From Azolla caroliniana (taxonomy: Eukaryota; Plantae; Polypodiophyta), in NCBI GenBank assembly GCA_043228905.1, contig JBHGNT010000021.1:11222001-11286000 (forward strand): 64,000 nt of DNA, in the 5' to 3' direction. The position numbers and the translations under genes were made by a program. The stretch's first letter is position 1. Each line of letters begins with the position of its first letter. Positions 11,630 through 63,305 of this stretch are shown piece by piece. The notes beneath the pieces are model-generated. The model was not told the DNA's origin and searched no databases. It was given only the letters and a program-made list of their open reading frames with translations.

Positions 11630-11644
11630 GCTCCCTTGCCACCC

Positions 11645-11663
11645 TTCACGTCGGGTTCACCCA
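11645..11663 (-). promoter_or_regulatory. Primer binding site, tRNA-Trp (N1)
   Basis: Minus strand TGGGTGAACCCGACGTGAA, complementary to plant tRNA-Trp 3' end TTCACGTCGGGTTCACCA (one extra G). Confidence 0.85.
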
Positions 11664-11666
11664 AGA

Positions 11667-12184
11667 TCTCGCGTTGTTACGCACGTGCGTGTAGAAGGGG
11701 CGGGACCACGGGGGTCTTGGACTAGGGAGTAGAGGAGAAAGAATAAGACACAAAATGGAAGCTTAGCTCAAGAGGAGGTGAGAAAGGATAAGACAATAAT
11801 ATAGAATAGACGGGCAAGATGCTCAACAAGTTAGCTTAAGGAAATATGAACGCTTTACAATGGTGGCCGCCATGGCCGCACCAAACGACTATATCAAAAA
11901 CCCTAAAGGAAAACCCAAGAAGAAAACCCTAACCGAAACCCTAAAACCGAATAGGAAACCCTTGACCTAAGTGGTATGCGTCTCTCCCTCAAAATAGGCA
12001 ACCCCTCATAAGTGACCCCTCCCTTCCTTTTATAGCCCAAGGAGGGAGGGACCTTACAATGTGGGATAGAGTTTCCCCTCTTATTTCTATACACCATTTC
12101 TTAGTATATATGTGCACATGGTGCACACCACTGATTTGCCTATTCCACCCCGGTTTCCGCCTATGGACGAAAATCTTCACGACA
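11667..12184 (-). repeat. 5' LTR of N1
   Basis: Direct repeat of 7559-8076; starts TGTCGTGAAGATTTTCG on minus strand, terminal CA mutated to GA. Confidence 0.95.
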
Positions 12185-36424: not shown

Positions 36425-37746
36425 TCAACTTGGGTTGGTATCCGGTTCAGACAATCTCCGGTGTCCGCTCGTTATCTGGTTCTCGCTTGTACTCCCCCTC
36501 AAGCTTGGCAAGTCAGGGATTGTCAATCCAAGGTCTGAGATGAATTGCCTAAGCTTGTCGGCTCCTAGGGCCTTCGTGAAGATGTTGGCCGTTTGAAGAT
36601 TTGTATTGATGTGTTGAAGGTCGACATCTCCGGCTTGAACACGCTCCCGAATGAAGTGATAGTGCACTTCGATATGCTTCGTGCGTGCATGGAACACCGG
36701 GTTCCGAGCTAGATAAATATTGCACATGTTGTCACAATAAAGGGGATTCGGATCCTTGATGGGAACGCCCAGATCCTTCAAAATCCTCTTGAGCCATACG
36801 GCTTCACACGCAGTTTTGGTTGCGCCCCTGTATTCCGCCTCCATACTCAAAAGAGCGATGGTAAGCTGCTTCTTGCTACTCCATGAAATCGCTCCGCTGC
36901 TGAGGGATAAGACAAATCCGGAGGTCGATCGTCGATCGGCTTTGTAGCCAGCCCAATCCGCGTCTGTATACCTTTCGAGTTGTATTGGTGTGGCCGATGC
37001 GTAGAGAACGTCGTAATACATTGTGCCGCTCACGTATCGTAATACTCGGCTAGCGCAATCGAAGTGAGTGTCGCGTGGCTTTTGCATGAATTGGCTGAGG
37101 AGTCTGACTAGATAGCTAAGGTCAGGTCGAGTGATCGTGAGGTAGATGAGGCTCCCGATCAGTTGACGATATTGAGTCGGATCGCACTTCGTGCCGGAGT
37201 CGGCATCCAGTTTGAGGTTTCTATCGAGAGGCGTAGCGATGGATTTGCACTCCGTCATCCCGAACTTGTATAACAGGTTGAGAATGTATTGCCGTTGAGA
37301 GATCATAATGCCAGCTGGAAGCCGAATTACTTCGATGCCAAGGAAGTAATGGAGCTCCTTCATGTCCGTCATCTCGAATTTTCTGGAGAGGAGGGACTTG
37401 ACCTTGTTGATGTCGACTAGACTTTCACCTCCAATGACCAGATCATCCACGTATAGGATGATGACAATTAAGCTTCTAGAGTCGTGTCGTATGTAGAGGG
37501 AGTTGTCGGATTTTGACATTCGAAAACCGATTTGATGAAGATAGTGCGTAATCTTCGAATGCCAAGCACGCGGTGCTTGCTTAAGGTCGTAGAGTGACTT
37601 CTTGAGTTGGCATACGGCTTTTGGATGAATGCGCGATTCGAAGCTGGGTGGTTGTACCATGTAGACCTCCTCATCTAATTTGCCTTGGAGAAAGGTGTTC
37701 TTGACGTCCATTTGGTGGAGGTGCCACCCTTTTTCCGCTACAAGTG
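36425..37746 (-). pseudogene. copia-E RT / RNase H segment
   Basis: MDVKNTFLQG, LKQAPRAW, LYVDD, YTDADWAG, KHIEVHYHFIRE. Confidence 0.93.
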
Positions 37747-38027
37747 TGTTATTGTGTTACCCCGTACGAGCTGTACTGAGAGTCAAGTGTGATGAGCGAG
37801 GGTCGAATATTATCATGATGATCTTGTATATGTGTAGGGAACATAAATGTAATTGTGAGTCGATATGTATGTGAACACATGCACACGTGTGTGCATGTGG
37901 AGGGATACGATGAGGTGTGAGTGAGTGTCCAATATGAATGCTCTAGGGGGCTTACACCCCTTTGTATCTACCCCCTCTTGTACTATTTAACCCCTTTATG
38001 GGGAATGAATGATAAATGAATCATTTC

Positions 38028-38065
<38 letters not shown>

Positions 38066-38232
38066 CCTCAACGTTGAACCCCCTTGGGAGGGGGGTGGAG
38101 CCATTCTAGGCACCACCCCCCACCCCACAATGCTTCTCTATATGATCTCTCTCACCATCATACTCTCCATCACCATGTCTATCTTTATCATGATTATCAT
38201 CATCATTAACCCTAACCCTAAAACATACAACA
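37747..38232 (+). repeat. LTR of a separate gypsy family (X), followed by PBS-like TGGCAACCACGA (38238-38249)
   Basis: TG...CATACAACA termini, TATA-like CTATTTAA, CT microsatellite; no internal similarity to 44177-44566. Confidence 0.72.
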
Positions 38233-38252
38233 CATTTTGGCAACCACGACGG

Positions 38253-40784
38253 GATGGATTTAGCGGCTACAACCAAATACGAATGAACCCGGCCGACCAA
38301 GAGAAGACAGCGTTCGTGACGGAATGGGGAGTGTTCGTCGCGGTCGTGATGATGTTCGGACTAAAGACGGCTCCAGCGACCTTTCAAAGGATAATAATGG
38401 AAATTTTCGGGGAATATATCCCCGGTTTTATGCAGGTCTTCCTTGACGATTTCGCGGTCTACAGCCGGCACGGAGAGCATCTCGATCACCTCCGGCTGTG
38501 CTTGGAGAAGTGCCGCGAGTACCGATTCAGCCTGAATCCGGCCAAATGTGTCTTTGGAGTGGCAAGCGGCAACTTGCTAGGGCACGTGGTGAGTAAGGAA
38601 GGAATCGCGGTAGATCCGGATAAAGTCAAGGCGATTCTCGATGCACCAGAACCAAGTAACACAAAGGCTTTAAGTCGGTTCCTGGGCCAAATAAGGTGGC
38701 ATAGCCGGATGATACGGCACCTCGCGGACTTCGCTACACCGTTACATACCGCCGTACATAGGGTACCCTTCCTATGGGCAGAGACGGAGGAGGAATCCTA
38801 CAAAGCGTTGAAGGTTATGCTGTCGCAAGCTCCGGTGGTGCAACCGCCGGATTGGAGTAAAAGCTTTCACGTCTTCGTCGACGCGTCGAACGTAGCAATC
38901 GGCAGCGTTTTGATGCAACTCACAGAGCCGAAATGGTACTGACCGGTGTACTACGCAAGCCGGAAACTCTCAAAAGCCGAACGGAATTACTCTACGACGG
39001 AACGCGAGGCATTGGGAATGGTGTATAGTGTCACAAAGTACAGGCACTATCTGCTCGGAAGGAAGTTTTCCTTCCATGTCGACCATTCGGCACTACTCTA
39101 CCTGGTCTCGAAGGCATCCCTGACGGGAAAAATTGCACGGTGGAAACTGCTACTACAGGAATTTGAATTCGACATTTTCCACCGACCCGGGGCGCACCAT
39201 GCGATAGCGGACTATCTAAGCAGACTCGAATCCGGAGAAGTAGGGGACGACGTCCAGGATGAGTTTCCCGACGCCGAATTGTTCCGGATCACGACGAAAC
39301 CGGCAACGGATACAACGGTAGCCGACGAAGACACATGGCTAACTGAGATGCACCAGTTCCTGAGCACCGGAGTTCCCCCGGAGAACATGGACCGCGATGA
39401 AAGGAAAAGGGTAGCAGTAAGAAGTAGACATTTCTGCTTGGTTGGAGACACCCTCTATCACAAGGGGGTAGATGGCATCTGGAGACGAGAAGTGCAGAGC
39501 GATGAGAAGGATCTAATCCTTAGGGAAGCCCACTGTGGAATTGCCGGCGGGCATTATGCCGGCGACGCAACCGCTTGGAAAATATGGCAGAGCGGACTGT
39601 GGTGGCCGACCACCCTAAAAGATGCCGTGAAGTATAGCAGAGAATGCGATTTGTGTCAACGACTGGGCCAACCCACAGAGCAGGCCCGGATGCCACACCA
39701 CCCGGTCTTGCCCTTAGAACCGTTTCAAAAGTGGGGGTTGGACTTTGTCGGTCCCTTCAAACCACCGGCAATGCGAACCGGAAATCGGTATGTCATAGTG
39801 GCGACCGACTATTGCACCAAATGGGTAGAAGCAAAGGCCTTACGGGACAACACGGTCGCGTCCACGGCAAAGTTTCTGTACGAGTGCATATGGTGCCGGT
39901 ATGGATGCCCGATCGAGCTTATAAGTGACCAAGGAGGACATTTTCTCGGGCAGGTAGTAGAGAGCCTGACGTCATTTTACGCGGTGGTACATAAAAAGAG
40001 TACTCCCTACTACCCTCAAGCCAATGGACTAGCGGAATCAACGAACAAAACTTTGTAGAACATCCTACGAAAAATCGTCAACGAGAACCGGACCGACTGG
40101 GATACGAAATTGCAAAGCGCGCTATGGGCGTACCGAACAACGTACAAAACCAGCATCCGGACAACCCCGTTCCGACTAGCATTCGGGTTAGAAGCGGTCA
40201 TGCCGGTAGAGTTCCAGATCCCCAACTTACGGATTCAGGTGAAGGAGCGCTTAAGTGAGAACGAGTCCGAACGAATCTGGCTGGCAACGCTGTTGGAATT
40301 AGAGGAAAACCGAATAGCCAGCTTACTACAACTCGAACTGGAGCAAAGGAGGAGAAAAGCCTTCGTGGACCGACACCGGCGTGGCAATGAAAAGGAGTTC
40401 GAAGTCGGGAAACCGGTGCTACTATTCCAGACAAGGATGGGGAACATGCCGGGAAAGTTGCGGTTTCGATGGACCGGACCGTTCTGGATCACCAAGGAGT
40501 ACAATGGGTCGTATCAGCTCGGCACGTTGTCTGGAGATGTCATTGGCAAGTGGGCAAATGGATTTCGGCTAAAGCCGTATAAAGGAAATATGCCAGCCAA
40601 CCCGTTCAAGCGAAACTCGGAAATCAGGCAAGATGAGGAACCGACACCGACAGACGCTGCTGAAGATATTCAGACCGATGAAGAACCGACACCGATACTG
40701 ACGAAGACTATCCCGGAAAACCGACAGAAGGATCCGGTATCCACACGAACCGACCCGAACAAATCGGGGGGGACCAGCAAATGA
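38253..40784 (+). pseudogene. T1 pol (RT from DGFSGYNQI, RNase H, integrase), two premature stops
   Basis: MFGLKTAPATFQR, VFLDD, FVDAS, WGLDFVGP, YPQANGLAE; near-identical protein to T2 pol. Confidence 0.93.
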
Positions 40785-41229
40785 CGTGGTCCAAGCAAAA
40801 GGAAAAAATAAAAAATAAAAAATAAAAAATAAAAAATAAAATAAAATAAAAAATGACGTGGGCAAAATCGACGCGAATCATCGTAATGATGGGGAGATCA
40901 CAAGAGGTGGGAGCGCCACCATGCAACGAAGAGGCGCCATGCATTAAAGAAGGACGTGCGCGTACTTGCTATTTAAAGCATGGAGCGTGGGCACTCACAC
41001 GCGGCAAACAAGAAAGGACATACTAATTATGGCGGGAGAGGAACATGCGCGGGAAACGAAAAAGGGCGGCTCGAGGCACAACCCACTATATAAGACACAG
41101 GCCTGCGAAGGGCTCACTTTTTACGAATTTTCCTACATACAGGCGTAGAAGCACAGAAGAGCGACCCGACGCACAGAGCACACACAGCGCGATCCCGAAC
41201 AACAGGGAGCAGAAGAAGAATTCAAAACA

Positions 41230-44126
41230 ATGGTACTGTCGGAAGAGGCACGCCAATGGATGAGGGAGAACGGGTTAAAAGGATTGCTGCGGATCGCCGA
41301 CGCTCCACCACACGCAGAACCAGAGCAGGCGGCAGCATCGATCGATATATCAGAAGTCACGGAAGGAGCGGTGCAGGCACTCACGGGGATCAAAGCAGGA
41401 GGACTGCAAACAATCGAAAACCCTTCCAGTGAAATCCTGTTCGAATATTTCGGGGAATACTCTATCAACAGCAAGGCGTACCGAACGCAGGGCGGAGAGA
41501 ACCTGCTGTTCGGAGAAGTGGCCCGCGCTATGATGGAATACGGATTCGTGAATCCCCGTCCCCCAGCCATAGCCAAGTACCGGGCAACATTCTTAATAGC
41601 AGCGTACGAGGGCTTACAAATAGACTGGCTCCATTTCATAACCGAAGGATTGAAGGAGGCCATCAGAAATCTTGTGGAAGGAAAAAAGCCATGGGCCGGG
41701 ATAGCACAATGGCTAACGGTGTTAGTCCCACCGGTGCTCCCCATCACACAAAAGAAAAGAGGTCGGCAGGAGACGACGCCGAAAAAGGTCACAAAGCGCC
41801 GACAGATCTTGGAGAAACACACCCCCGGATGGACCCAACAAGAAGCAGAACAGCAGGGGGAAGGACCATCCCGACAGCAACAGGAACCGGCAACAAAGGC
41901 AAAACCGGCAGGTAAAGGCAAAGGGAAAGCGGCCGAGGAGGAACCGGTAGCGCGCAAACCAATCCATATAACGCTGCGACGGCCGGAACCGGAACCAGAG
42001 GTCTCTAGACAAAAGGTCTGTCTGGTAACCGCACCGGAGGAGGAAACTGAAACAGAAGACTCATCCGAACCACTGGTAAGACTCCCAGCAAGACAAGGTC
42101 GGGAGAAACGGGCGAAAGGACCAGCTCCACCAGTGGACAGAACTCAGCAGAGGGCGCAGGGACCATCTCCAGTAGCCGAGGCGGAAACAGCACCGGAACC
42201 CGTACCCAGGGAAGCAGCACCGACACCGGTTGGGTCAGAAAACCGGTCATCCCAGAGAAGAAGAAGGAACAAGCGCCGGAGCCGGAGCCAGAGAAGAGGC
42301 TGGAAAATCAGCCTGGCTTAAGTGAGCAAGGCCACCCCGACACCGGAAGAACAAAGCCACAATGGCTGAGATGGCTTTCGGAGCAGTTATCGGGAGTAGC
42401 GGACCAGTTAGAGAAAGAAGAAACGTGTCGGCAACAGCTGACGCATACAACAACTCAGGAGTTGGTCGCACTCCGAACACAGATCGAGGAAATGCAAGGG
42501 GAGCTGTTGCAGGCAAGGGAAGGAATTCAACAAGCACAAGCTGTCACCGAGCCAGTCGGGACAACAAGGAAGCAACCAGAACCGGAACCGGAACCGGTAG
42601 CCTTGCAAACCGGCCCTGAGACCGAAAAAATAATAGAAACCTTACGAGAGGAGTTACAAGCTCAGGAGGCATTAAGGGAAAGAGAAAGGGAGCAGCGGAA
42701 AGCGGTGGAGGATGACAGACGAAAAATGGAAGAAGGCCTCCGGAAAGGTCGAGCCGCTAATGACCGACTGCAAGAAGAAAAAGAGAAGTTGCAGAAGGAG
42801 AAGGACCGACTACGTCGACATGCCGAGCAAGAGATAGAACGACTGCAGGAAGAACTCCGACAACAGAAGGACCGGGACGATCGGTTAAGAGCTCAGGCAT
42901 CCCGACGCCTGAAGCAGAAGACGGAGGACTTCGACCGTCTCTACCGAGATCACAAGCAGGCCGAGTCGGACAACAAAAAACGAGCAGCAAACTACGACCG
43001 GCAAATAGAGAAGCTAAAAGAGCAGCTCAAAGAGACCCGATTAGACCTGGCTAAGGCGATGGATGAGGTCAGTGCCAACAAGGAAGCATTGTCGGCGGAA
43101 ATAGCCCAAGCAACGGAGAGAAGGAAGGAATTAGAGGCGCTAAGGCGGGAAAAGCTGGACCTGACCAAGATCAGGAATGAAGAAAAGGAAAAATCGACCT
43201 TCACGATCAGCAAACTGCAGAGTACCTATGAAAAGCAGAAAGCAGATTACGAGGCCCAGGCTCAGATAATGGCCGACATTATAAAACGGGCAAGGAAGGA
43301 AAAGCAGGAAGCTTATGCGCATGCTAAGGCAGGGGTTGACCGGATCAAGCTCATCATGTCAGGATGGAGAACCCGAGCTCAGGCAAGCATCAATGAAAGT
43401 ACGGAAAAGCTATGGAAGGAGTGGTCACAACAGGCAGCTAAGCTGCAGACACTCCGAGCGGATGTCGAGAATCGGAGGAAGACCGGTGACAAGTTCTACA
43501 AGATGGATGAGGAAAGTATCGTCGCCATTCGGGAAGAATTGTCGGAAGATTTCTACACTTTAGCGGAAGAACATCTCAAAGAAATCCGAGGGTTGGTAGA
43601 GAGGTTGGATGACGGGCAGCTCGCAACTCAGTTGGAGTTGGAGAGATACGAGTAGGACCGGTTACGACAGGAAGCTAAGGGAAGAACGACGCCAACCACT
43701 ATTGGTGAGGGAACGCGACCGGCTGAAGATGAACCAACCGACGCCGAACAACCTCGACGAGGAATACCCGAAGACGAACTTGAAGAAGAGCAGGAGCGGA
43801 CCGATGCCGGAGAAGAAGAAGAGCTGAGACCGGAAGACACCAGAGCAGAGGAAGGAGGCATATCGAGTCGACCAGTCGAGACCGGAGAAAGCGACACTGG
43901 TAACAGAACAGAGCCAAGAACGGAGGGAGAACAGGAAGAACCCGGACGAAGAGGTGAGGAAGCACCGACACCACAGAATCAAGCAGAGCCGGAGCAGCAA
44001 ATTTTTACAGAACAGCCCACCCAACCGGAGGTCGGAGACCAGGCAGGCAAGGAACAGGAACAGGAGGAAGAAGCACCACTTGACACCATCGAGCAGAGTG
44101 TGCTCGATATTTTGGAGGAAGACTGA
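41230..44126 (+). pseudogene. T1 ORF2 (3' extra ORF), one frameshift near 42250 and a stop at 43653
   Basis: ORFs 41230-42321 and 42462-43655 are collinear with T2 ORF2; both end LEED*. Confidence 0.88.
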
Positions 44127-44176
44127 GGCCGGGAGTGGATTCGAAGTGCAAGGCACTTTCCCACGGGCGTGCCATG

Positions 44177-44566
44177 TGTTGGCCGGTCAGAAGAGCAAGG
44201 ACAAGTGGGAAGGCGGAATCGGATCGGATAATAGGAGGCAAATAATAGTAGAATTATTATTCGGAGGGACGGATCCGGTACAATTGTACCGATCCAGATC
44301 CGGACCGATTCGTATGTCGGTTGCCTAAGCGCACCGATTGTAACCTTGCCGGATGCCTATAAAAGGATCCGATGATTTGTAAAGTGTTTTGACGGAAGTA
44401 ATACAATAGTGATTATTGCGTATTTATTTGTATCTCGTATTGTTTGCCGTCCGTGCTTAATTGTAATCATCTTATGCGTGTAACCTAGCATCCAATCCTT
44501 ACCACCCCTTTGGAGAAGTGTCGGATAGACACCTGTGTTGAGGCTAGTCCGGCCAGACAGACAACA
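44177..44566 (+). repeat. 3' LTR of T1
   Basis: Homologous to T2 LTRs (TGTTGGCCGGTCA...CCTATAAAAGG...ACAACA); followed by TSD AAGTG. Confidence 0.92.
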
Positions 44567-45256
44567 AAGTGCAATCACGGTCCACACCGTTATCATCTTT
44601 GCCACCGGGGCAAAGGTCTCTTCATAGTCGACGCCATGCGTCTGAGCGTATCCTTTCGTTGTGAGTCGAGCTTTGTAGCGGTTTACGGAGCCATTGGCGT
44701 TATACTTCACCTTGTAGATCCATCTGCAATCGATTGCCTTCTTGTGCAGTGAGTGGGGAACGAGATCCCATGTCTCGTTCTTGCGTAATGCACGCATCTC
44801 CTCGTTCATTGCTTTGATCCATCGCGGGTCCTTCGCGGCTTCGGAAAAGGTTTCTGGCTCCCGTACTATTGCTACCTTCATCATAAAGGCGTAATGGTAC
44901 GCCATATAATCATTGTAGCCGAATCGGCTTATGGGGTTCTTTTCACGGGTAGATCGGCGAAGCTTCTCATTTGCGGATACTATGGTGTTCTCCGCCCCAT
45001 TTGTTCGGATCTCAAGGCCTTCGAACTCACTATCGAGGGAGTGAGTTGATTCGTTGCCGTCAAAGTGATCATCTTCAAACTCCGGCATTTTTGCCTTCCC
45101 TTTGTCCATCCTCAAACTCGACTGAGATGTGCTTTGATTGCTCGGGGGCTCTTGTGGCCCACTAAGCCTTGTTGTAATTGGGCTTTCTTCAAACATGCGC
45201 GTGAGTCGATCTTCGGCTTCTATCTCTATTTCGGCGGAATCCGGGTCTAGCGGAAT

Positions 45257-52860: not shown

Positions 52861-53173
52861 GTTGATGGCGGTGCATGGTGTCTTAAAGATGTTTGGTCCA
52901 AAAGCCTAATAGTATTTTGTGCATAAAAGAAAAAGATGTAAGCAAGACTCGAACTTAACACCTCCAAGATAGGAAGCAATAAGTTTACCATTAAGCCAAA
53001 CCATTTCTTTAGAGATTATATTTCTATCATTATAACTTTACATATAAATTCTCATACATGAGAGCTAAAATGAGTGACGTGGTTATCATGCACCACATGT
53101 AATACATGAGCGCCAAATGGCAAACATGCATTTTATGCATATCTTGTACCCTCGAATGCATGAGGGCAACTAT

Positions 53174-53544
53174 TGTTGGCCGGTCAAAGAAGGCAAATGG
53201 GAAAGCAAGGTCGGATCGGATAAATATAGAAATAGGAATAGAATTATTAGGAGGGACGGATCCGGTAGTTGTAACCGATCCGGATCCGAACCGATTCGGT
53301 TTCGGTTAACGGTTGCCTACCGAGCACCGATTGTAATCTGGCCGGATGCCTATAAAAGGATCCGATGTTTTGTAATGAAAGCGCGAAGAATTAATATAGT
53401 TTTGCTTATGCTGATTAATCTTGTCTTCGTCTGTGCTTAAGTGTAATTATCATACGCGTGTATTAACATCCTATCCCTACCACCCCTTTGGAGAAGTGTC
53501 GGATAGACACCTGTGTTGCGGCTAGTCCAGCCATACATACAACA
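53174..53544 (+). repeat. 5' LTR of T2
   Basis: Direct repeat of 62633-63003; TATA CCTATAAAAGG ~53349. Confidence 0.97.
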
Positions 53545-53550
53545 CTATTT

Positions 53551-53560
53551 TGGCGACCAC
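53551..53560 (+). promoter_or_regulatory. Primer binding site, probably tRNA-Arg (10-nt match)
   Basis: TGGCGACCAC, complementary to ...GTGGTCGCCA of plant tRNA-Arg; 6 nt after LTR. Confidence 0.65.
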
Positions 53561-53596
53561 GATTCCTGCAGAGTGCAGAGGACAACCGGGGGATGG

Positions 53597-56500
53597 ATGT
53601 CTAGACAAAATAACGACCACATCACCGAAAGAGGGAGACGCCACGCCGAACGGCAGCGACGACGGGAAGCCCTGCAGCAAGCCGTTGACGAGATCCGGAG
53701 CGATCGGTCATTCTCAAAAACGCTTCGGCAAATCGCAGAAAACGCACTGCAGTTCCAGGTTCTACAAGCTTCCGACGAAGGCAGTAGCATAACCAGCCTC
53801 CAAGAAGCGGAGACACTACTACAGACTCTCGCTGGCGGCGACGGGGACGCAGCGGCATTTGCAACATTAGAGGCGGATTCGGATAGCGGGGAAAGCGTGG
53901 GATCCCGCTATAAAAACAGCCACGAGAACAACCCCTTTGAGTCGGATCGCTCAGCAACATCGGAACCAGAGGATGAAATAACTCTGGAGTTCGGTGACCG
54001 GCAATCGCCGAGGAGGGAGGAGCGGATACCAACACCACCCGCGGAGGAACCGCAGGAGCGGTTATCAACACCACCCGCGGAGGAACCGCAGGAGCGGATA
54101 CCAACACCACCTGCGGAGGAACCGCAGGAGCGGTTATCAACACCACCCGCGGAGGAACCGCAGGAGCGGATACCAACACCACCTGCGGAGGAACCGCAGG
54201 AGCGGAGACCGACATCGGAGGAACCAGCGCAGGAGAATCAGTGGGACGACACGATGCCGTATCCATACCCAAAGTATCGGGATGAGCCCGACGGAGAGGC
54301 ACATGTGTATGCATTCCTGCGAACATGGGAAGCCAACCACGTGTCCCAGAGACTGACGGAGCCCGAGGCCGACCGATCCAAAGTCGCCGAATTCGGCATG
54401 ACATTAGAAGGACCGGCGGCCCGGTGGCACGACAAGCACTTACCAGGCAGCTTCGCCACGTTCGAGGCATTGAAAACCCAGTTTTTACGCTTGTTTCATA
54501 GACGAGTGGAACAAAGGGAATTGGTCGGACAATTCTACACCACTCGGCAGGGAGAAAACGAGACGGTCCCACAATTTATCATTCGTTTCCAGACCTTGCA
54601 CAGTCAATTAGCAAGAGCACCACCCGAAGAGGAGGCCAAGGCAGTCTTTTTGGCTGCGTTAAAAGACCCACTTCGAGCGATGTGTGGAATCATCGATTTC
54701 AGCACCAGCACAATGGACCAAGTCATTGATCGGGTCCTGGAAATGGACAACACGAGCCCCTTCTTGCCGATGGGGGCGTTACACCAGGCGCTTCCGAAGG
54801 AGGAGGACCTCCGGTTCCGACAAGCCCTACAATGCACAACATGCCTAAATTCGGGGCACTCGACCGTTAACTGCACCCTGCGCGCACAGTGCATGATATG
54901 CAATTCTCGCGCCCACACAACGAACCAATGCGAGTATAACCTGTTAACTCGACAAGCGGCACCGGTCCGACACATAGAACCGCGCAATCGGGACCCGGAA
55001 GAGGATCGATTCCGGAGGGACGACCGCTACCGACGAGAACGCGGCGACAGATACCCCGATAGAAGACGCGACAGCTATGACCGAGAGGAGAACCGAAGGG
55101 ATAGCTACCCCCGGGACCGGTACGACCGAGACGAATCCCCGGAATACGAGCGACGCAGAGAAGAAAGGCGGCCAGGGAACCGGAATTTCCGACGGAACCA
55201 AAGGCGGGGATTCTTCCGTAGAGAAGAGCGTCGGGAGGCAACAAGGAATGACAAACCAGTAGCGGCACCGGAGAACCAAAAGACCGAGGACAACCGCCGG
55301 GGAATGCCCCTCCCCCAAACATGGGAAAAAGGAGAATCCAGCAACACGCACAGGGTGTACTGTTATTACTGCCGAAAAGAAGGGCATTACAGTAATCAAT
55401 GCCCAAGCAAAACAGCCGACAAGCAGCCAGCAGTCAACATGGTGACAGCCGAAGTACAGCAGGTTACCACGCGGTCGAAGGGGAAGGCCGCCGAATGGGA
55501 AGCCCAGGAAGTAATCAGAAAACAAGCGGCACAATGGATCAAAGAAGCCAACGAACAAGGTGCGGCGGAAGTAAGAAACCAAAATATGCCAAGGGAGGAG
55601 GAAATCGTACAGCCAGGAGAAAACCCGACATGGCAAGCACTACAAGATTGTCAGATCGTGCTGCCGTTGGCACGGTTACTGCAGTTGGTGCCGCGGTTCG
55701 CAGCAGACTTACAAGCCGCCGTAAGCAAACCGACGCCGACGCCAGCACCGGCATTTTTCTCCAACCCGGAGGAAGGCCCAGCGGTGGTTGATACCAGTAG
55801 CCCAGCAATCACGACAATCGTCAAAGGAAACGAGATTCCAGGAACAATTATTGACGGAGGTTCCGGGGTGAACGTCATTAGTCGACGGACATGCGACGAC
55901 CTAGGCATCCAGGAGTGGGAACCATGCCCCTTCTGGTTACGCATGGCGGATACAAGCTCAGTCCGACCAACTGGTCTTATCCGGGACTTGGAAGTAACAA
56001 TAGGAGGCCACGGATTCCGAATATCGGCCGTGGTACTAGAGCTGAATGTACAAGGCGCATATCCCCTACTGTTAGGACGACCATGGTTGCGAACGGCGCA
56101 TATCAAGCAAAATTGGCAAAAGAATATGATCACGTTCCGACGAGGAAAAACAAAGGTACGGGTAGCCACGCAACCACGGGTGCTCACTAGCAAGGAGGCA
56201 ACCCCTTTATATGCCGAAAGCATCAACATGTTGGAGGGCTTATTGGATGAGGAAGTTGATCGGTACCTCGAGGAACACCCACAGATCGTCCCACTTTTTG
56301 AGGTGGATATCACGGCAGCAGTAGAGCCGTACATCACAATGCCGGACGAGCCGGACAAAGTGGCGATCCGGGAACTACGCCAAGCACAGGAAGCCCTAGA
56401 AAGAGAAATGACGATATCCCAAAGGGTGAAAGCATCCCAGCTGGAAGAGGTGGACCTCGGCACAACAGAACAACCCCGACCGGTAAAAGTCGCGAAGGAA

Positions 56501-59083
56501 TTGTCGAAGGAGGAAAAACAGGCAATGGTAGCACTGTTAACGGAGTTCAAGGACGTGTTCGCATGGTCATACGAAGACATGCGAGGGTTGGACCCCCAGC
56601 TCTACCAGCACCAAATTCATCTAAGTACTGACGCGAAACCCATCGCTCAACGTCGGTACCGGATGAATCCAAACTATGCGGCAAAGGTGAAGGAGGAAAT
56701 TGACAAGCTTCTCCGGGTCGGATTTATCCGACCAGTCAAGCAGGCAACCTGGCTAAGCCCGATAGTGGTGGTCCCGAAAAAGAACGGCAAAATCCGGGTC
56801 TTCCTAGACGATTTCGCCGTCTACAGCCGACACGGAGAGCATCTCGATCACCTACGACTATGCTTAGAAAAGTGCCGCGAGTACCGATTAAGTCTGAACC
56901 CGGCTAAGTGCGTCTTTGGAGTCGCAAGCGGCAATTTGTTAGGCCACGTGGTGAGTCGAGAAGGAATCGCGGTAGATCCGGATAAGGTAAAAGCAATTCT
57001 CGACGCACCGGCACCGAATAGCGCAAAAGCTTTAAGCCGATTCCTTGGTCAAATAAGGTGGCATAGTCGGATGGTACGGCACCTTGCCGACTTTGCGACA
57101 CCATTGCACGCTGCTGTACATAGAGTACCTTTCCAATGGACAGAAACGGAGGAGGCAGCCTACCAAGCGTTGAAGGTCATGCTGTCACAAGCTCCGGTGG
57201 TGCAGCCGCCGGACTGGAGTAAAAGCTTTCACGTCTTCGTCGACGCGTCGGACGTAGCAATCGGCAGTGTTTTGATGCAACTCACGGAACCGAAATGGTA
57301 TCGGCCGGTGTACTACGCAAGCAGGAAACTCTCGAAAGCCGAACAGAACTACTCTACAACGGAACGAGAGGCATTAGGAATGGTGTACAGCGTCACAAAG
57401 TACAGGCACTATCTGCTCGGACGAAAGTTCTCCTTCCACGTTGACCACTCGGCACTACTCTACCTAGTCTCAAAGGCAGCCCTGACAGGAAAACTCGCAC
57501 GGTGGACGCTGCTATTACAGGAATTCGAATTCGACATTTTCCACCGACCCGGGGTGCAGCATGCGGTAGCAGACTACCTGAGCAGACTAGAATCCGGAGA
57601 ATCAGGGGACGGCGTACAGGATGAATTTCCCGACGCCGAGCTGTTTAAGGTCACGACGGCACCGGTAACGGAGACCACAGTAGCGGACGAAGACAAATGG
57701 TTAACCGAAATGCATCAGTTCCTGAGCACCGGAGTTCCCCCGGAAAACTTGGACCGAGACGAACGGAAGAGGATGGCAGTACGGAGCAGACATTTCTGCT
57801 TGGTAGGAGACACCCTCTATCACAAGGGGGCAGATGGCGTATGGAGGCGAGCAGTGCGGAGCGATGAAAAGGATCTGATCCTGAGGGAAGCCCACTGTGG
57901 AATTGCAGGCGGGCATTATGCCGGCGAAACAACAGCCCGGAAGATATGGCAGAGCGGACTATGGTGGCCGACTACCATGAGAGATGCCGTTAAGTATAGC
58001 AGGGAATGCGACCTGTGTCAACGACTGGGCCAACCCACGGAGCAGGCCCGGATGCCACATCACCCGGTCTTGCCATTAGAACCATTCCAAAAGTGGGGCT
58101 TGGACTTTGTTGGCCCCTTTAAGCCACCGGCAATGCGGACCGGAAATCGGTATATAATAGTGGCTACCGACTACTGCACGAAATGGGTAGAAGCAAAGGC
58201 ACTACGGGACAACACGGCGGCGTCCACGGCCAAATTTTTATATGAATGCATATGGTGTCGGTACGGATGCCCGATTGAGCTGATCAGTGACCAGGGAGGA
58301 CATTTCCTCGGGCAGGTGGTGGAAAGTTTGACATCATTCTATGCGGTAGTACACAAACGAAGCACTCCCTACTACCCTCAAGCCAACGGATTAGCGGAAT
58401 CAACGAATAAAACGCTACAGAACATCCTTAGAAAAATCGTCAATGAGAACCGGACCGACTGGGATACGAAGTTGCAGAGCGTGCTGTGGGCGTACCGAAC
58501 GGCGTACAAGACCAGCATCCGGACGACCCCGTTCCGACTGGCGTTCGGCTTGGAAGCAGTCATGCCAGTAGAATTCCAAATTCCTAGCTTAAGAATACAG
58601 GTTAAGGAGCGGTTAAGCGAGAAGGAATCCGAACGAATCCGGCTGAAGATGCTGTTAGAACTGGAAGAAAATCGAATAGCCAGCCTGCTACAGCTAGAAC
58701 TAGAGCAAAGGAGGAGGAAAGCCTTTGTAGACCGACACCGGCGCGGTAACGAAAAGGAATTCGGTGTCGGGAAACCTGTATTACTGTTCCAGACAAGGAT
58801 GGGGAGCATGCCAGGGAAATTGCGATTTCGGTGGACCGGACCATTCTGGATCACAAAGGAGTACAATGGGTCTTACCAGCTCGGGACGTTGTCAGGAGAA
58901 GTTGTGGGCAAATGGGCAAATGGTTTTCGCCTAAAACCGTATAAGGGGCACATGCCAGCTAACCCCTTCAAGCAAGACCCGGAAAACCTGAATGGCGAGG
59001 AACCGACACCGACGCGTAACAACGACGAGGAACCGACAACAGTGCGCACCGACCCGAACACATCGGGGGGAACCGAACAATGA
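53597..59083 (+). CDS. Gag-PR-(internally deleted RT)-RNase H-integrase polyprotein
   Basis: Open frame; knuckles CTTCLNSGH..C, CMICNSRAH..C, CYYCRKEGHYSNQC; protease IIDGGSG; RT reads KNGKIRV|FLDD; RNase H FVDAS; integrase HHCC and D,D,E; first ATG after PBS at 53597. Confidence 0.93.
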   Translation: MSRQNNDHITERGRRHAERQRRREALQQAVDEIRSDRSFSKTLRQIAENALQFQVLQASDEGSSITSLQEAETLLQTLAGGDGDAAAFATLEADSDSGESVGSRYKNSHENNPFESDRSATSEPEDEITLEFGDRQSPRREERIPTPPAEEPQERLSTPPAEEPQERIPTPPAEEPQERLSTPPAEEPQERIPTPPAEEPQERRPTSEEPAQENQWDDTMPYPYPKYRDEPDGEAHVYAFLRTWEANHVSQRLTEPEADRSKVAEFGMTLEGPAARWHDKHLPGSFATFEALKTQFLRLFHRRVEQRELVGQFYTTRQGENETVPQFIIRFQTLHSQLARAPPEEEAKAVFLAALKDPLRAMCGIIDFSTSTMDQVIDRVLEMDNTSPFLPMGALHQALPKEEDLRFRQALQCTTCLNSGHSTVNCTLRAQCMICNSRAHTTNQCEYNLLTRQAAPVRHIEPRNRDPEEDRFRRDDRYRRERGDRYPDRRRDSYDREENRRDSYPRDRYDRDESPEYERRREERRPGNRNFRRNQRRGFFRREERREATRNDKPVAAPENQKTEDNRRGMPLPQTWEKGESSNTHRVYCYYCRKEGHYSNQCPSKTADKQPAVNMVTAEVQQVTTRSKGKAAEWEAQEVIRKQAAQWIKEANEQGAAEVRNQNMPREEEIVQPGENPTWQALQDCQIVLPLARLLQLVPRFAADLQAAVSKPTPTPAPAFFSNPEEGPAVVDTSSPAITTIVKGNEIPGTIIDGGSGVNVISRRTCDDLGIQEWEPCPFWLRMADTSSVRPTGLIRDLEVTIGGHGFRISAVVLELNVQGAYPLLLGRPWLRTAHIKQNWQKNMITFRRGKTKVRVATQPRVLTSKEATPLYAESINMLEGLLDEEVDRYLEEHPQIVPLFEVDITAAVEPYITMPDEPDKVAIRELRQAQEALEREMTISQRVKASQLEEVDLGTTEQPRPVKVAKELSKEEKQAMVALLTEFKDVFAWSYEDMRGLDPQLYQHQIHLSTDAKPIAQRRYRMNPNYAAKVKEEIDKLLRVGFIRPVKQATWLSPIVVVPKKNGKIRVFLDDFAVYSRHGEHLDHLRLCLEKCREYRLSLNPAKCVFGVASGNLLGHVVSREGIAVDPDKVKAILDAPAPNSAKALSRFLGQIRWHSRMVRHLADFATPLHAAVHRVPFQWTETEEAAYQALKVMLSQAPVVQPPDWSKSFHVFVDASDVAIGSVLMQLTEPKWYRPVYYASRKLSKAEQNYSTTEREALGMVYSVTKYRHYLLGRKFSFHVDHSALLYLVSKAALTGKLARWTLLLQEFEFDIFHRPGVQHAVADYLSRLESGESGDGVQDEFPDAELFKVTTAPVTETTVADEDKWLTEMHQFLSTGVPPENLDRDERKRMAVRSRHFCLVGDTLYHKGADGVWRRAVRSDEKDLILREAHCGIAGGHYAGETTARKIWQSGLWWPTTMRDAVKYSRECDLCQRLGQPTEQARMPHHPVLPLEPFQKWGLDFVGPFKPPAMRTGNRYIIVATDYCTKWVEAKALRDNTAASTAKFLYECIWCRYGCPIELISDQGGHFLGQVVESLTSFYAVVHKRSTPYYPQANGLAESTNKTLQNILRKIVNENRTDWDTKLQSVLWAYRTAYKTSIRTTPFRLAFGLEAVMPVEFQIPSLRIQVKERLSEKESERIRLKMLLELEENRIASLLQLELEQRRRKAFVDRHRRGNEKEFGVGKPVLLFQTRMGSMPGKLRFRWTGPFWITKEYNGSYQLGTLSGEVVGKWANGFRLKPYKGHMPANPFKQDPENLNGEEPTPTRNNDEEPTTVRTDPNTSGGTEQ
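54020..54235 (+). repeat. 36-bp coding tandem repeat x5 plus partial copy (ER[I/L][P/S]TPPAEEPQ)
   Basis: GAGCGG(ATAC/TTAT)CAACACCACC.GCGGAGGAACCGCAG units alternating between two variants. Confidence 0.95.
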
Positions 59084-59095
59084 TGCGGCATATGT

Positions 59096-59565
59096 AAAAA
59101 AAAAAAATAATAATAATAATAATAATAAGAAAAATAATAAAATAAAATAAAATAAAAAAAAAAAAAAAAAAAATGATGACGTGCTACGGTCAAGAAGATC
59201 AAGAAAATCATGGTAATAATGAAGGAGGTAGTTACAACCGTCACACGGGTGCACGAGCTATTTAAAGCACAGAACGTGGGGGCGCCGTTGTACAGGATTT
59301 AAAACGCGCGTCAATTAAGGAGTCATAATGACAGACACGTAGAAGATTCGACACACGCGGCAAAGAAGCGGAAGCATGACACGCGGCAGCAAAGGACACA
59401 CATACTATTCATGACACAGCATGCGCAGGCGCCAAAAATAGGACATGCTATTCAAGGCAGAACACGTGCAGCCGTCAAAATTAAAGAGTGACATGCTAAT
59501 TATGGCAGGGGACGCGCGAAAATCAGGAAAAGGCGGCTGGAGGGAAACGCCACTATATAAAGGAA
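59096..59565 (+). promoter_or_regulatory. pol-ORF2 spacer: A/AAT tract and putative internal promoter
   Basis: Poly-A/(AAT)n 59096-59172, GCTATTTAAAGCA ~59257 and CCACTATATAA ~59551, all with counterparts in T1 (~40797-40855, ~40968, ~41083). Confidence 0.55.
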
Positions 59566-62500
59566 GAACCGGAGAAGGGTTCACTTTTTACGAATTTTCC
59601 CACAAGCAAACGCAGGCTCGACGCGCAGAACACCTACACCCCGACCTCAGACCACAGGCAGCAGCAGACGAAGAAGAAGCGATGGCACTGTCGGACGGAG
59701 CGCGACAATGGCTGACGGAGAACGGATTAGGAGGGCTGCTGCGGGTCGCTGACGCTCCACCACACAAGGAACCAGAGCAGGCGGCAACAGCGGTGGACTT
59801 AGCAGAGGTCACTGAAGGAGCGGTACAAGCGCTCACAGGGATTTCGGAGGGAGGACTTCAGACGATAGAGCTACCCTCGAGCCAAATATTCTTCGAGTAT
59901 TTCGGCGAATACTCCCTTAGTAGCAAGGCGTATCGCACACAGGGCGGAGAGAACCTGCTGTTCAGAGAGGTGGCCCGCACCCTGATGGAGTACGGGTTCG
60001 TGAACCCTCGTCCGGCAGCCATAGCCAAATACCGAGCAGCGATCGTCATCGCGACATTCGAAGGCCTCCAGGTGGACTGGCTCCATTTCATCACCGAAGG
60101 ACTGAAAGAGGCGATCAAGCACTTAGTGGAAGGGAAGAAGCCATGGGCCGGAATATCCCAATGGTTAACAGTGTTGGTCCCACCGGTGTCCCCCATCAAG
60201 CACAAGCAAAGAAGTCGGCAGGAGACTACCCCGAAGCAAACCATGAAACGCCGACGAATCCTAGAAAAACACACTCCAGGATGGACACAGGAAGAAGAAG
60301 CGCCGCCAGAAGAGGGATCATCCCGACAGCCGCGGAAAGAAGGCTCATCTCGACAACCGAGGGAAGAAGACTCCTCCCGACAGCAACGGGAAGAAGACTC
60401 CTCCCGACAGCAACAGAAACAGCAACAGCAACCGACAACGAAGAAGAAAAAGGCGGAAAAAGGCAAGGAGAAGGTGGCAAAGAAGACCAGCAAGAGGCAA
60501 ACCGACACCGAACCAGTAACGCTCGAATCGGAACCGGTACCAGTAAAGGAACCAATAGTGGCACCGACGGAGGACGCTGAAACAGAGGAAGACTCATCCG
60601 AGCCGATGTTAATACTACCACCCAGGCAAGGAAAGGAGAAACGAGCGACAAGACCGACCCCAACAGCGGACGAAACTCAGCAACGGGCAAAAGAACCGCC
60701 TCCAGTAACCGGAACAGAAGCGACACAGGATGAAGGTTCTTCTGCACCAAAGACGGCAGTACCGGAACGGACGGCGGCGGAGTTCGAAGAACAAAGAAAG
60801 GAACAAGCGCCGGAACAAGAGAAGAGGCCGGAGAAACAGCCGGAAAAACAGCCGGAGCTAGGCACGCCTGCTGACACCAACGAAGGCAGAACAAAGGCAC
60901 AATGGCTAAGGTGGTTGTCAGGGCAGTTGTCGGGAGTAGCAGACCAGATGGAGAAAGAGGAGGAGCAAAGAGAAGAAGTGACTAGGACGATGACTAAGGA
61001 TATGGTCATGCTCCGGGCACAATTACATGAGCTGCAAGAAGAGATAGCACAGGCAAAAGAAGGCAGCCGACAAGCACAAGATGGCACCGAGCCGGTCGGG
61101 ACATCAGAAAAGCAAGCCGAACCACAAACGGAGAAGGCCTTGCAAACCGGCCCTGAGACCGAGAAGTTAATAACAACTTTGAAAGAAGAATTACAGGCTC
61201 AGGAGGCATTGAGAGATAACGAAAGAGAACAGCGGAAGTTGGTAGAAGACGACAGACGGCGAATGGAGGAAGGCCTTCGCCGAAGCAAAGCCACCAATGA
61301 CCGACTACAAGAAGAAAACGGGACACTGCAAAAGGAAAAAGATAGGCTGCGCCGACGAATGGAGCAGGAAATTGAGCGGTTGCGAGAGGAACTCCGACAA
61401 CAAAAGGACCGGGATGATCAGTTGCGAGCTCAGGCGAACCGACGCCTAAAACAGAAGACGGAGGAATTCGACCGACTATGTAAGGATTATAAACAGGCCA
61501 CGTCGGACATCAAGAATCAGGCAGCAACGTACGACCGACAGATGGAGAAGCTGAAAGAGCAGCTCAAGGAAAACCGCTTGGAATTGTCCAAAGCAAGGGA
61601 GGAAGTATCGGCGGAGAAGACCTTGACGTCGGAACAAAGAAAGGAGATGGAAGTACTTCGGCAGAAAGTAGGGGAACTGACAAAGAGCCGGAACGAGGAA
61701 AAAGTGAAGTTGACTTTCGAAATCAACAAATGGCGGAGTACCTGTGACAAGCAGAAAGTCGACTCTGAAGCTCAAGCTCAGTTAATGGCCGACATCATCA
61801 AACGGATAAGGAAGGAAAAACAAGCAGCTTCGGAACAGGCTAAAGCAGGGGTTGACCGAATTAAGTTCATCATGTCAAGCTGGAGTACCCGAGCTCAGGC
61901 CAGCATAAATGAAAGCACGGAGAAACTCTGGAAGGAATGGGCACAACAGGCAGCTGAACTGCAGATACTCCGAGCTGATGCAGAAAATCGGAAGAAAAAC
62001 GGAGATGGGTTCTATAAAATGGACGAAGAAAGTATCGTCAACATCCGGGAAGAACTGTCGGAGGATTTCTATGCTCTAGCAGAAGAACATCTCAAGGAAA
62101 TCCGAGGGTTAGTAGAGAGGTTGGATGACGGACAGCTCGAAACCCAACTAGAATTGGAAGGGTACGAGAAGGACCGACTGCGACAGGAAGCCGAGGGACA
62201 CACAACGCCGATCTCCATTAGTGAGGGCGAGCGACCGGCTGAAGAGGACCCAACCAACAATGTACCCGAGGAAGAACTTCCGGAGCAAGAGCAGGTTGAT
62301 GCCGGGGATGATGCAGAGTGGAGACAGAGAAGTACCGAATCCGGGGAGGAAAGGACACAACCAGTGGAAACCGGAGAGAGCGATACCGGGAACGGAACGG
62401 AGGTGGAGCAGGACAGACCCGGACAGGATACAGAAGAAACACCGGTACCACCGGTACAAGCAGAGTCGGAGCAGCAAGATGCGAAAAGGCAGCCAATCCA

Positions 62501-62582
62501 ATCGGACGTCGGAGACGGCACAGGCAAAACAACACTTGAAACCTCGGAGCGGAGTTTGCCTGATAATTTGGAGGAAGACTGA
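59445..62582 (+). CDS. ORF2: large retrotransposon accessory protein (N-terminal globular domain, disordered linker, long coiled coil, acidic tail); function unknown; probable start ATG 59682
   Basis: 1045-codon open frame inside the LTR pair; homologues in T1 and T0; E/K/R/Q-rich heptad region; no obvious hydrophobic transmembrane stretch. Confidence 0.9.
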   Translation: MLFKAEHVQPSKLKSDMLIMAGDARKSGKGGWRETPLYKGRTGEGFTFYEFSHKQTQARRAEHLHPDLRPQAAADEEEAMALSDGARQWLTENGLGGLLRVADAPPHKEPEQAATAVDLAEVTEGAVQALTGISEGGLQTIELPSSQIFFEYFGEYSLSSKAYRTQGGENLLFREVARTLMEYGFVNPRPAAIAKYRAAIVIATFEGLQVDWLHFITEGLKEAIKHLVEGKKPWAGISQWLTVLVPPVSPIKHKQRSRQETTPKQTMKRRRILEKHTPGWTQEEEAPPEEGSSRQPRKEGSSRQPREEDSSRQQREEDSSRQQQKQQQQPTTKKKKAEKGKEKVAKKTSKRQTDTEPVTLESEPVPVKEPIVAPTEDAETEEDSSEPMLILPPRQGKEKRATRPTPTADETQQRAKEPPPVTGTEATQDEGSSAPKTAVPERTAAEFEEQRKEQAPEQEKRPEKQPEKQPELGTPADTNEGRTKAQWLRWLSGQLSGVADQMEKEEEQREEVTRTMTKDMVMLRAQLHELQEEIAQAKEGSRQAQDGTEPVGTSEKQAEPQTEKALQTGPETEKLITTLKEELQAQEALRDNEREQRKLVEDDRRRMEEGLRRSKATNDRLQEENGTLQKEKDRLRRRMEQEIERLREELRQQKDRDDQLRAQANRRLKQKTEEFDRLCKDYKQATSDIKNQAATYDRQMEKLKEQLKENRLELSKAREEVSAEKTLTSEQRKEMEVLRQKVGELTKSRNEEKVKLTFEINKWRSTCDKQKVDSEAQAQLMADIIKRIRKEKQAASEQAKAGVDRIKFIMSSWSTRAQASINESTEKLWKEWAQQAAELQILRADAENRKKNGDGFYKMDEESIVNIREELSEDFYALAEEHLKEIRGLVERLDDGQLETQLELEGYEKDRLRQEAEGHTTPISISEGERPAEEDPTNNVPEEELPEQEQVDAGDDAEWRQRSTESGEERTQPVETGESDTGNGTEVEQDRPGQDTEETPVPPVQAESEQQDAKRQPIQSDVGDGTGKTTLETSERSLPDNLEED

Positions 62583-62632
62583 AGCCGGCTGTGGGTTCGA
62601 AGTGCAATGCACTTTCCCACGGGCGTGCCATG

Positions 62633-63003
62633 TGTTGGCCGGTCAGAGAAGGCAAATGGGAAAGCAAGGTCGGATAGGATAAATATAGAAATAGGAATAG
62701 AATTATTAGGAGGGACGGATCCGGTAGTTGTAACCGATCCGGATCCGAACCGATTCGGTTTCGGTTAACGGTTGCCTACCGAGCACCGATTGTAATCTGG
62801 CCGGATGCCTATAAAAGGATCCGATGTTTTGTAATGAAAGCGCGAAGAATTAATATAGTTTTGCTTATGCTGATTAATCTTGTCTTCGTCTGTGCTTAAG
62901 TGTAATTATCATACGCGTGTATTAACATCCTATCCCTACCACCCCTTTGGAGAAGTGTCGGATAGACACCTGTGTTGCGGCTAGTCCAGCCATACATACA
63001 ACA
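62633..63003 (+). repeat. 3' LTR of T2
   Basis: Direct repeat of 53174-53544, followed by TSD ACTAT. Confidence 0.97.
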
Positions 63004-63305
63004 ACTATAAAAGAGGAGGGGAAAAAGATGAAAGGGTAATGTAAAATTTTTGGGAGCTTTGTACTTGATAGGAAAATTAAAATTAAAAGTAAGAAATTCG
63101 TTATCCAATTGATGATATATCTTGTCTCTCAAAATCTCTCTCACAATCTAAAATCAAGTGTTCTATCTTATCTCGATCTCTCCCTTTCAATATATCTTAA
63201 ATCCTTTCTCACTAAAGCTAGCGCCAACTTCGAGTGCTTCCGGTCCAGAACCTCGGCGGTTCCGCCTCATGATCCGCGCGTAGTGACAGACGAATCTTCA
63301 CGACA

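What the first reader, a model, noticed from the sequence alone, without database searches (positions are those of the whole stretch)
56780..56820. RT core removed in-frame from a young intact element; the junction looks like a splice product
Seen: T2 pol reads KKNGKIRV|FLDDF. It lacks the RT segment holding the first catalytic Asp and the PATFQR motif (at least the 61 codons visible in T1 at 38253-38435; about 100 expected), yet the frame stays open, the LTRs are almost identical and the TSD is perfect. In sibling T1 the missing segment ends GGTTTTATGCAG|GTCTTCC (AG at 38434-38435), a strong plant 3' splice acceptor. The T2 junction ATCCGG|GTCTTCC fits a GT donor at the Val codon after Arg. 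Inference: a spliced RNA was packaged, reverse-transcribed in trans and integrated. The family may use splicing to make an RT-less Gag-PR-RH-INT protein. The donor itself is not visible in this window.
Basis: partly seen in the sequence, partly recalled or inferred. Interest (0 to 1): 0.75.

Follow-up and report, generated by a model that had tools for sequence, protein, structure and literature searches.

The report
Spliced retrotransposon copy lacking RT core
One young copy of a plant jumping gene lacks exactly 297 bases of its copying enzyme, and in intact sister copies those bases begin and end with splice-type signals, so it was likely made from an accidentally spliced RNA that a sister's enzyme likely copied back into the genome; no second such copy was found.

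Summary
Observation confirmed. T2 (53174-63003; 371-bp LTRs with 2 differences, TSD ACTAT) has an open gag-pol frame but lacks 99 codons of RT, including the first catalytic Asp. Intact relatives (proteins 97-98% identical; DNA loci 83-91%) show the missing 297 nt runs CGG|GTATG(C/T)...TTTTATGCAG|GT, so the predicted donor exists. In the closest intact locus the acceptor ranks 1 of 275 AGs and the donor 1-8 of 170 GTs. Only 7 of 71,726 possible deletions with 3-nt or longer microhomology have both sites as strong. Best reading (0.72): a cryptically spliced genomic RNA was packaged, reverse-transcribed by an intact sister's RT and integrated, a plant LTR counterpart of L1 SpIREs. Against: no RNA test was possible, the two ends also resemble each other (GGT, 12 of 21 nt), and no second copy was found. 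The idea that the family splices on purpose to make an RT-less polyprotein is weakly supported: across the family the acceptor AG is kept in 7 of 16 loci and the strong donor in 17 of 48, and the piece is not U-rich.

The parts
53169..53173 (+). 5' target-site duplication ACTAT
53174..53544 (+). 5' LTR (371 bp, TG...CA)
   Evidence: 2 differences from the 3' LTR
53551..53562 (+). primer-binding-site-like TGGCGACCACGA (tRNA-Arg type is recalled, not tested)
   Evidence: sequence
53597..59083 (+). gag-pol ORF without stops: GAG, zinc knuckle, protease-like D-G-G-S motif, RT remnant, RNase H, integrase
   Evidence: RVT_1 matches only profile positions 147-204 of 205
56797..56799 (+). junction where 297 nt (99 codons) of RT are missing; GGT fits either side; splice placement is 56797|56798
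59442..62582 (+). extra 3' ORF (1046 aa stop to stop, no Pfam hit), collinear with T1's
62593..62630 (+). tRNA-3'-end-like stretch ending CCA, in place of a polypurine tract, 2 nt before the 3' LTR
   Evidence: sequence; described by earlier scan notes
62633..63003 (+). 3' LTR
63004..63008 (+). 3' target-site duplication ACTAT
38253..38435 (+). sister element T1: last 183 nt of the piece missing from T2, ending in the acceptor
38426..38437 (+). splice-acceptor-like TTTTATGCAG|GT in T1, the only match in the window at up to 1 mismatch
   Evidence: 0.23 expected by chance for the motif alone

Best explanation
T2 is a young, cleanly integrated Ty3/gypsy copy that lacks 297 nt of RT and was likely made from a genomic-length RNA in which a cryptic GT-AG intron was likely spliced out by accident, then likely packaged, reverse-transcribed by RT from an intact sister and integrated. 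Shown: the exact loss, its ends in intact relatives, their rank as splice sites, intact LTRs and TSD, and abundant intact sisters. Inferred: that the spliceosome made the cut, that it happened before integration, and that RT came in trans (or from the same parent's unspliced RNA). The sites look incidental: they are made by the codons R-V-C and G-F-M-Q-V in one clade and are absent from much of the family. The copy is likely a rare by-product that cannot copy itself but keeps its cis signals.
For: Missing piece is 297 nt, GT...AG. In L049 the acceptor ranks 1 of 275 AGs (score 6.1, next 3.3) and 1 of 215 in L080; the donor ranks 4 of 170 (8 if +6 is C). Ranks hold under four matrix/background choices (acceptor 1, donor 1-4) and the acceptor is first in 196 of 200 perturbed matrices; no stronger donor lies inside the piece; 0 of 133 antisense AGs score as high. 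A matrix-free filter passes 1 of 275 acceptors (this one) and 6 of 170 donors. 7 of 71,726 deletions of 60-2000 nt with at least 3-nt microhomology have both sites as strong; among those whose ends are also 12/21 alike, 1 of 1,324, the observed one. Intact sisters abound: P0125, P0128, P0126 are 98, 98 and 97% identical in pol and keep all 99 codons; a contig of depth 3,227 in X8 matches T2 without a difference downstream and runs on into intact RT. T2 has had little time for DNA deletion: 2 LTR differences, no stop codons.
Against: No RNA evidence. No second copy: 0 hits for the degenerate junction in metagenome contigs, 0 of 118 loci, 0 of 261 other proteins, 0 of the 150 best representatives, no bridging contig among 26 listed of 147 pieces in four runs. 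The ends have GGT microhomology and 12 of 21 matches in register (top 0.4% of in-frame pairs in L049, 11/21 and top 1.3% in L080). The piece is barely U-rich (T 23% against 20%; GC 49-51% against 54-57%). Ordinary deletions are common in older family copies: 6 of 30 nt or more with at least 80 aligned nt on each side among 53 loci, and P0275 lacks a different part of RT. GTA is the commonest Val codon at the donor (21 of 48), so the confirmed donor prediction is a modest test by itself. The weight matrices are recalled approximations.
Confidence: 0.72

Rival explanations
1. The loss is a homology-guided deletion: RT jumped between the two look-alike stretches (the R-V-C-V-D and Q-V-F-L-D codons) during cDNA synthesis, or repair joined them at GGT after insertion; the splice-like ends are chance.
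For: GGT microhomology and 12 of 21 in-register matches, top 0.4-1.3% of pairs. Single occurrence. Other deletions occur in the family's RT at other ends. Illegitimate recombination is the usual source of deletions in plant LTR elements (PMC2533021 and PMC1142308, passages).
Against: Among 1,324 equally look-alike end pairs in L049 only this one has both strong sites. The right end is the single best acceptor of 275. Three of the 12 matches follow from the splice consensus G|GT...AG|GT itself. T2 is very young.
Confidence: 0.15
2. The T1/T2 clade keeps a facultative in-frame intron on purpose, making an RT-less Gag-PR-RH-IN polyprotein that would raise capsid, RNase H and integrase supply relative to RT; T2 is a leaked copy of that message.
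For: Both sites are kept in L049, L080 and the T2 subfamily at 83-95% DNA identity; chance of keeping the five synonymous positions is about 0.05. The acceptor stands far above all others. Rice CRR is reported to splice out rt (PMC3735527, passage citing other work).
Against: Acceptor AG kept in 7 of 16 and G|GTATG in 17 of 48 family loci; several loci keep only one of the two. No U-enrichment, unlike the BARE1 intron (37.5% against 13.5% U, PMC3735527 section 11). Known programmed TE introns create or remove a stop; this one does neither. The p of 0.05 is post hoc.
Confidence: 0.1
3. The junction is an assembly or chimeric-read error in a high-copy repeat.
For: No listed contig in X8, X6, X9 or X12 bridges it; no raw reads or whole genome were available.
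Against: Logan contigs drop rare variants: high-depth contigs also differ from T2 at up to 3 letters, so T2's private alleles are not shown either. An error has no reason to land on the best splice pair and keep the frame.
Confidence: 0.03

Closest known systems
Spliced integrated retrotransposed elements (SpIREs) of human L1 (Larson et al. 2018, PMC5860796; abstract and outline seen)
   Same: A retroelement RNA spliced at its own sites is copied back and integrated; the product is crippled and generally a dead end; sequence drift creates new splice events.
   Different: L1 is non-LTR; SpIRE introns lie in the 5'UTR or 5'UTR/ORF1 and recur many times. Here an LTR element, an in-frame loss inside RT, and one copy so far.
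CRR centromeric retrotransposons of rice (seen only as one sentence in PMC3735527; the primary paper was not held)
   Same: A Ty3/gypsy element whose transcripts are spliced so that rt is removed.
   Different: CRR splicing is said to create two ORFs and was seen in RNA; CRR is a chromovirus (recalled). Here the frame stays open, only DNA is seen, and no chromodomain was detected.
[quoted passage not shown]
   Same: Plant non-chromoviral Ty3 element with a facultative intron of similar size (mean 274 bp). Intron-less genomic Ogre copies are recalled from the primary paper, not checked.
   Different: The Ogre intron is non-coding and its removal restores pol translation; here coding RT sequence is removed and the enzyme is lost.
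BARE1 and EVD/Ty1-copia shGAG splicing (PMC3735527 passages and section 11; PMC5580714 passages)
   Same: Splicing inside a single gag-pol ORF at GTAT-type donors and CAG/G acceptors.
   Different: Those sites are conserved, U-rich and create a stop after Gag; BARE spliced RNA was not found as genomic DNA. T2 would be the leak that BARE avoids.
Diaspora env loss by anomalous splicing (hypothesis in PMC1142308, passages)
   Same: Proposes packaging and reverse transcription of an improperly spliced RNA in a plant Ty3 lineage.
   Different: There the ends could not be tied to splice sites; here both ends are read in near-identical intact sisters.

Membership tests
Ty3/gypsy LTR retrotransposon | TG...CA LTRs with 5-bp TSD | tested here: met
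Ty3/gypsy LTR retrotransposon | domain order GAG-PR-RT-RH-INT | tested here: met
   (GAG, RT remnant, RH, INT); protease by motif only, no Pfam hit; relative P0143 matches Ty3 RT 4OL8 at E 2.7e-39
Ty3/gypsy LTR retrotransposon | polypurine tract before the 3' LTR | tested here: not met
   tRNA-end-like stretch instead, in T1 and T2
Autonomous element | complete RT with three catalytic Asp | tested here: not met
   missing part aligns to positions about 115-211 of the 4OL8 chain sequence, including the Asp of LDxxSG; only FLDD remains (catalytic roles recalled)
Tat clade (OTA) | additional archaeal RNase H domain | tested here: not met
   no PF13456 in T2 or P0004-P0009; the T2 clade lies outside the seed-plant aRH group, which has 100/100 support
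Athila / Phygy / Selgy | phylogenetic placement with reference elements | not tested
   no named references were in the tree
Spliceosomal GT-AG intron | GT donor near consensus at the 5' end | tested here: met
   CGG|GTATG(T/C), rank 1-8 of 170
Spliceosomal GT-AG intron | T-rich YAG|G acceptor at the 3' end | tested here: met
   rank 1 of 275 and 1 of 215
Spliceosomal GT-AG intron | U/AU-rich intron body as in plant genes | tested here: not met
   T 23% against 20% in flanks; the norm for this GC-rich host is unknown
Spliceosomal GT-AG intron | branch point 18-40 nt before the AG | tested here: inconclusive
   a TGAT lies about 23 nt upstream in one X8 contig of T2's subfamily, not in T1 or L049; not scored
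Spliceosomal GT-AG intron | removal seen in RNA | not testable with these tools
   no RNA holder listed
Spliced integrated retroelement (SpIRE-like) | precise loss at splice sites plus normal integration marks | tested here: met
Spliced integrated retroelement (SpIRE-like) | several independent insertions with the same junction | tested here: inconclusive
   none found, but the host genome was not available and contigs drop rare variants
Programmed TE intron (Ogre, BARE1, EVD type) | splice sites conserved across the family | tested here: not met
   AG 7 of 16, G|GTATG 17 of 48
Programmed TE intron (Ogre, BARE1, EVD type) | splicing creates or removes a stop to set Gag:Pol ratio | tested here: not met
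   frame and ORF unchanged
Amplified non-autonomous subfamily (BARE2-like) | many copies share the defect | tested here: not met
   all listed high-depth contigs at the junction belong to intact RT

The most novel reading that the evidence does not exclude
This clade of PPT-less non-seed-plant Ty3 elements carries a functional in-frame intron inside RT that yields an RT-less Gag-PR-RNase H-integrase polyprotein, a way of setting enzyme ratios not described for LTR elements, and spliced copies such as T2 are the seed of a protein-donating non-autonomous subfamily.
Probability: 0.1. Interest if true: 0.7.

Novelty: new variant of a known kind. Interest (0 to 1): 0.38.

Why it matters
Plant LTR elements are thought to keep spliced RNA out of their particles (BARE, PMC3735527). 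A natural insertion with both splice ends readable in 97-98% identical sisters would show that this filter leaks, and that host splicing at cryptic sites can turn an autonomous element into a non-autonomous one in a single step, as proposed without direct evidence for Diaspora. It also suggests a cheap genome-wide test: score the ends of internal deletions in young LTR copies as splice sites, to learn what share of so-called illegitimate-recombination deletions are splice products. As one probable dead-end copy its biological weight is modest.

Tried and rejected
No whole genome is held, so copies could not be counted at loci. No RNA holder listed: no evidence either way. One search listed no contig bridging the junction in X8, X6, X9, X12 (26 of 147 pieces shown, longest kept); this excludes a major subfamily at most, not a single copy. 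Junction pattern in metagenome contigs: 0. Intact-family pattern in viral contigs: 0. Proteins P0410, P0377, P0338, P0292 and P0405 skip similar parts of RT but are annotation gene models from seed-plant genomes, where a predicted intron can give the skip; rejected as evidence. Low-depth joints elsewhere in RT (from 56457-56460 and 56581) have unknown letters between and no GT...AG ends as laid on T2; not followed. A table of plant splice-site frequencies was not found, so matrices were recalled and tested for robustness. The Ogre and CRR primary papers were not held. No structure was predicted, since the loss of the catalytic segment is plain from alignment. No supplements were opened; those of TE transcript atlases such as PMC13547354 may list similar RT-internal introns.

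Full report
1. The element. Self-comparison and translation define T2 as 53174-63003, with 371-bp LTRs that differ at 2 sites and the TSD ACTAT on both sides. One open frame (53507-59083 stop to stop) holds GAG, a zinc knuckle, RNase H and integrase, and RVT_1 only at profile positions 147-204. A second ORF of 1046 aa follows, with no Pfam hit. Relatives lack the extra archaeal RNase H and lie outside the seed-plant Tat group in a 43-protein tree (the group label came from Pfam notes, and one of its 19 rows had no PF13456 note). The host is probably a fern: this is inferred from an Adiantum protein at 81% over the junction flanks and from earlier scan notes.

2. The loss. WLSPIV lies 116 aa before FLDD in the closest relatives and 17 aa in T2. 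Of 60 other proteins with the KKNGKIR-type motif, 33 show the full 99 codons, 24 gave no downstream match, 3 show other spacings, and none has T2's junction. DNA loci L049 (88%), L080 (83%), L040 and L053 align to T2 in two pieces that meet at 56797-56799; the gap in L049 is 297 nt. By alignment of a relative to Ty3 RT (4OL8) the gap covers about positions 115-211 of that chain, including the Asp of LDxxSG; FLDD stays. From established RT biochemistry (recalled) such an enzyme cannot polymerise.

3. The ends. In L049, L080 and L104 the piece starts CGG|GTATGT; in L049 and L080 it ends TTTTATGCAG|GT, as in T1. Loose ends of contigs in X8, X6 and X9 show the same start and end. A single X8 contig of depth 3,227 matches T2 without a difference from 56797 on and runs upstream into the acceptor; its codons match P0124-P0126 and P0128, T2's closest relatives.

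4. Is that more than chance? With a recalled Arabidopsis-type matrix the acceptor ranks 1 of 275 AGs in L049 (6.1 bits against 3.3 for the next) and 1 of 215 in L080; the donor ranks 4 of 170 and 2 of 127, or 8 and 7 if +6 is C. The ranks hold with local background, with a vertebrate-type matrix, and in 196 of 200 perturbed matrices for the acceptor; no stronger donor lies inside the piece. The consensus AG/GTA and CAG/G is given in PMC3735527 section 11. Of all deletions of 60-2000 nt in L049, 7 of 4.0 million have both sites as strong; 7 of 71,726 among those with microhomology of 3 nt or more. The main rival is that the ends resemble each other: GGT, and 12 of 21 nt in register, in the top 0.4% of in-frame pairs. 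Restricting the null to such pairs leaves 1 of 1,324, the observed pair. My estimate: a likelihood ratio of a few hundred for splicing against a prior of roughly 1:10, discounted for recalled matrices and no RNA, gives about 0.8 for a splice origin.

5. How often? No second copy was found. The degenerate junction has 0 matches in the metagenome collection and in 118 fetched loci; 0 of 261 other proteins and 0 of the 150 best representatives carry it. One search listed 26 of 147 pieces, longest first, and none bridges it, while intact sides have depths of hundreds to thousands. Against low-depth contigs of about 35-50 in X8, the intact subfamily would number some tens of copies or more (rough inference; the tool warns that depth is no copy number). 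Because these contigs also drop T2's private alleles, this rules out a major deleted subfamily but not one or a few copies. Ordinary deletions are common in older copies: 6 well-flanked ones of 30 nt or more among 53 loci, none with GT...AG as aligned, though at 67-79% identity their ends are unsure.

6. Accident or programme? Among 48 family loci with I-R-V at the donor, 17 have G|GTATG; among 16 with the acceptor region read, 7 keep AG. Within the close clade both are kept, with a chance of about 0.05 from background synonymous identity (74 of 144 fourfold and 93 of 148 other sites). The piece has 23% T against 20% in its flanks. Both sites sit before Val codons, which makes the cut in frame without any selection. 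The simplest reading is cryptic sites formed by codon choice.

7. Mechanism. Shown: exact loss, splice-like ends, intact integration marks, intact sisters. Inferred: an intact subfamily member was transcribed; a share of its RNA was spliced between the nearest strong donor and the best acceptor; the spliced RNA kept R-U5, PBS and the 3' priming region, was packaged, copied by RT from unspliced RNA or a sister, and integrated normally. T2 could still be transcribed, give Gag, protease, RNase H and integrase, and move again with help; nothing here shows that it did.

8. What is known. L1 SpIREs are the closest kind (PMC5860796, abstract). Splicing is known for Ogre, Bagy2, CRR (which removes rt), BARE1 and EVD (PMC6317226, PMC3735527, PMC5580714, PMC12786077; passages), and introns placed in Ty elements are lost on transposition (PMC12786077, passage). 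BARE spliced RNA was not found in genomic DNA (PMC3735527). Diaspora's env loss was proposed to come from anomalous splicing (PMC1142308, passages). Nine searches (listings seen) showed no report of a natural plant LTR insertion with an in-frame cryptic intron removed from RT, but the Ogre and CRR primary papers were not held, and I recall intron-less Ogre copies being reported. PMC13547354, PMC2533021 and PMC13756887 were read as passages only; the last was not relevant. The scan's index had no note of this junction.

9. Verdict. Real feature, likely a spliced retrocopy, so far single, probably a dead end. New variant of a known kind; interest 0.38.

Noticed in passing
window 37742-44571: T1 (37747-44566) is flanked by the duplication AAGTG inside a minus-strand copia RT, yet its 5' end (37747-38232) is unlike its 3' LTR. 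The 5' piece ends in CA, then a 17-nt PBS-like TGGCAACCACGACGGGA, then mid-RT directly. It looks like a chimera of two families formed by an aberrant strand transfer and then integrated as one unit.
   Followed up: partly
window 62593-62630 and 44136-44174: T2 and T1 have no polypurine tract; a tRNA-3'-end-like stretch ending in CCA, with a small hairpin, lies 2 nt before the 3' LTR. Earlier scan notes describe this for the lineage.
   Followed up: partly
window 59442-62582: Large extra 3' ORF (1046 aa) with no Pfam hit and a long charged, coiled-coil-like second half; 55-66% identical to T1's and with older fragments at 24095-26134. Function unknown.
   Followed up: no
window 54018-54235: Tandem proline/glutamate-rich repeats (EEPQERIPTPPA) before the GAG core; their number differs among relatives P0004, P0125, P0126, P0128.
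   Followed up: no
window 56457-56581 and onward: Low-depth contigs in several runs skip 75-672 nt of the RT N-terminal region from nearly the same start points; letters between are unknown, so they may be diverged copies or real deletions.
   Followed up: no
window 7561-12184: Another young element with 516-bp LTRs at 98.5% identity and no Pfam hit in three internal ORFs: a possible non-autonomous LTR element.
   Followed up: no
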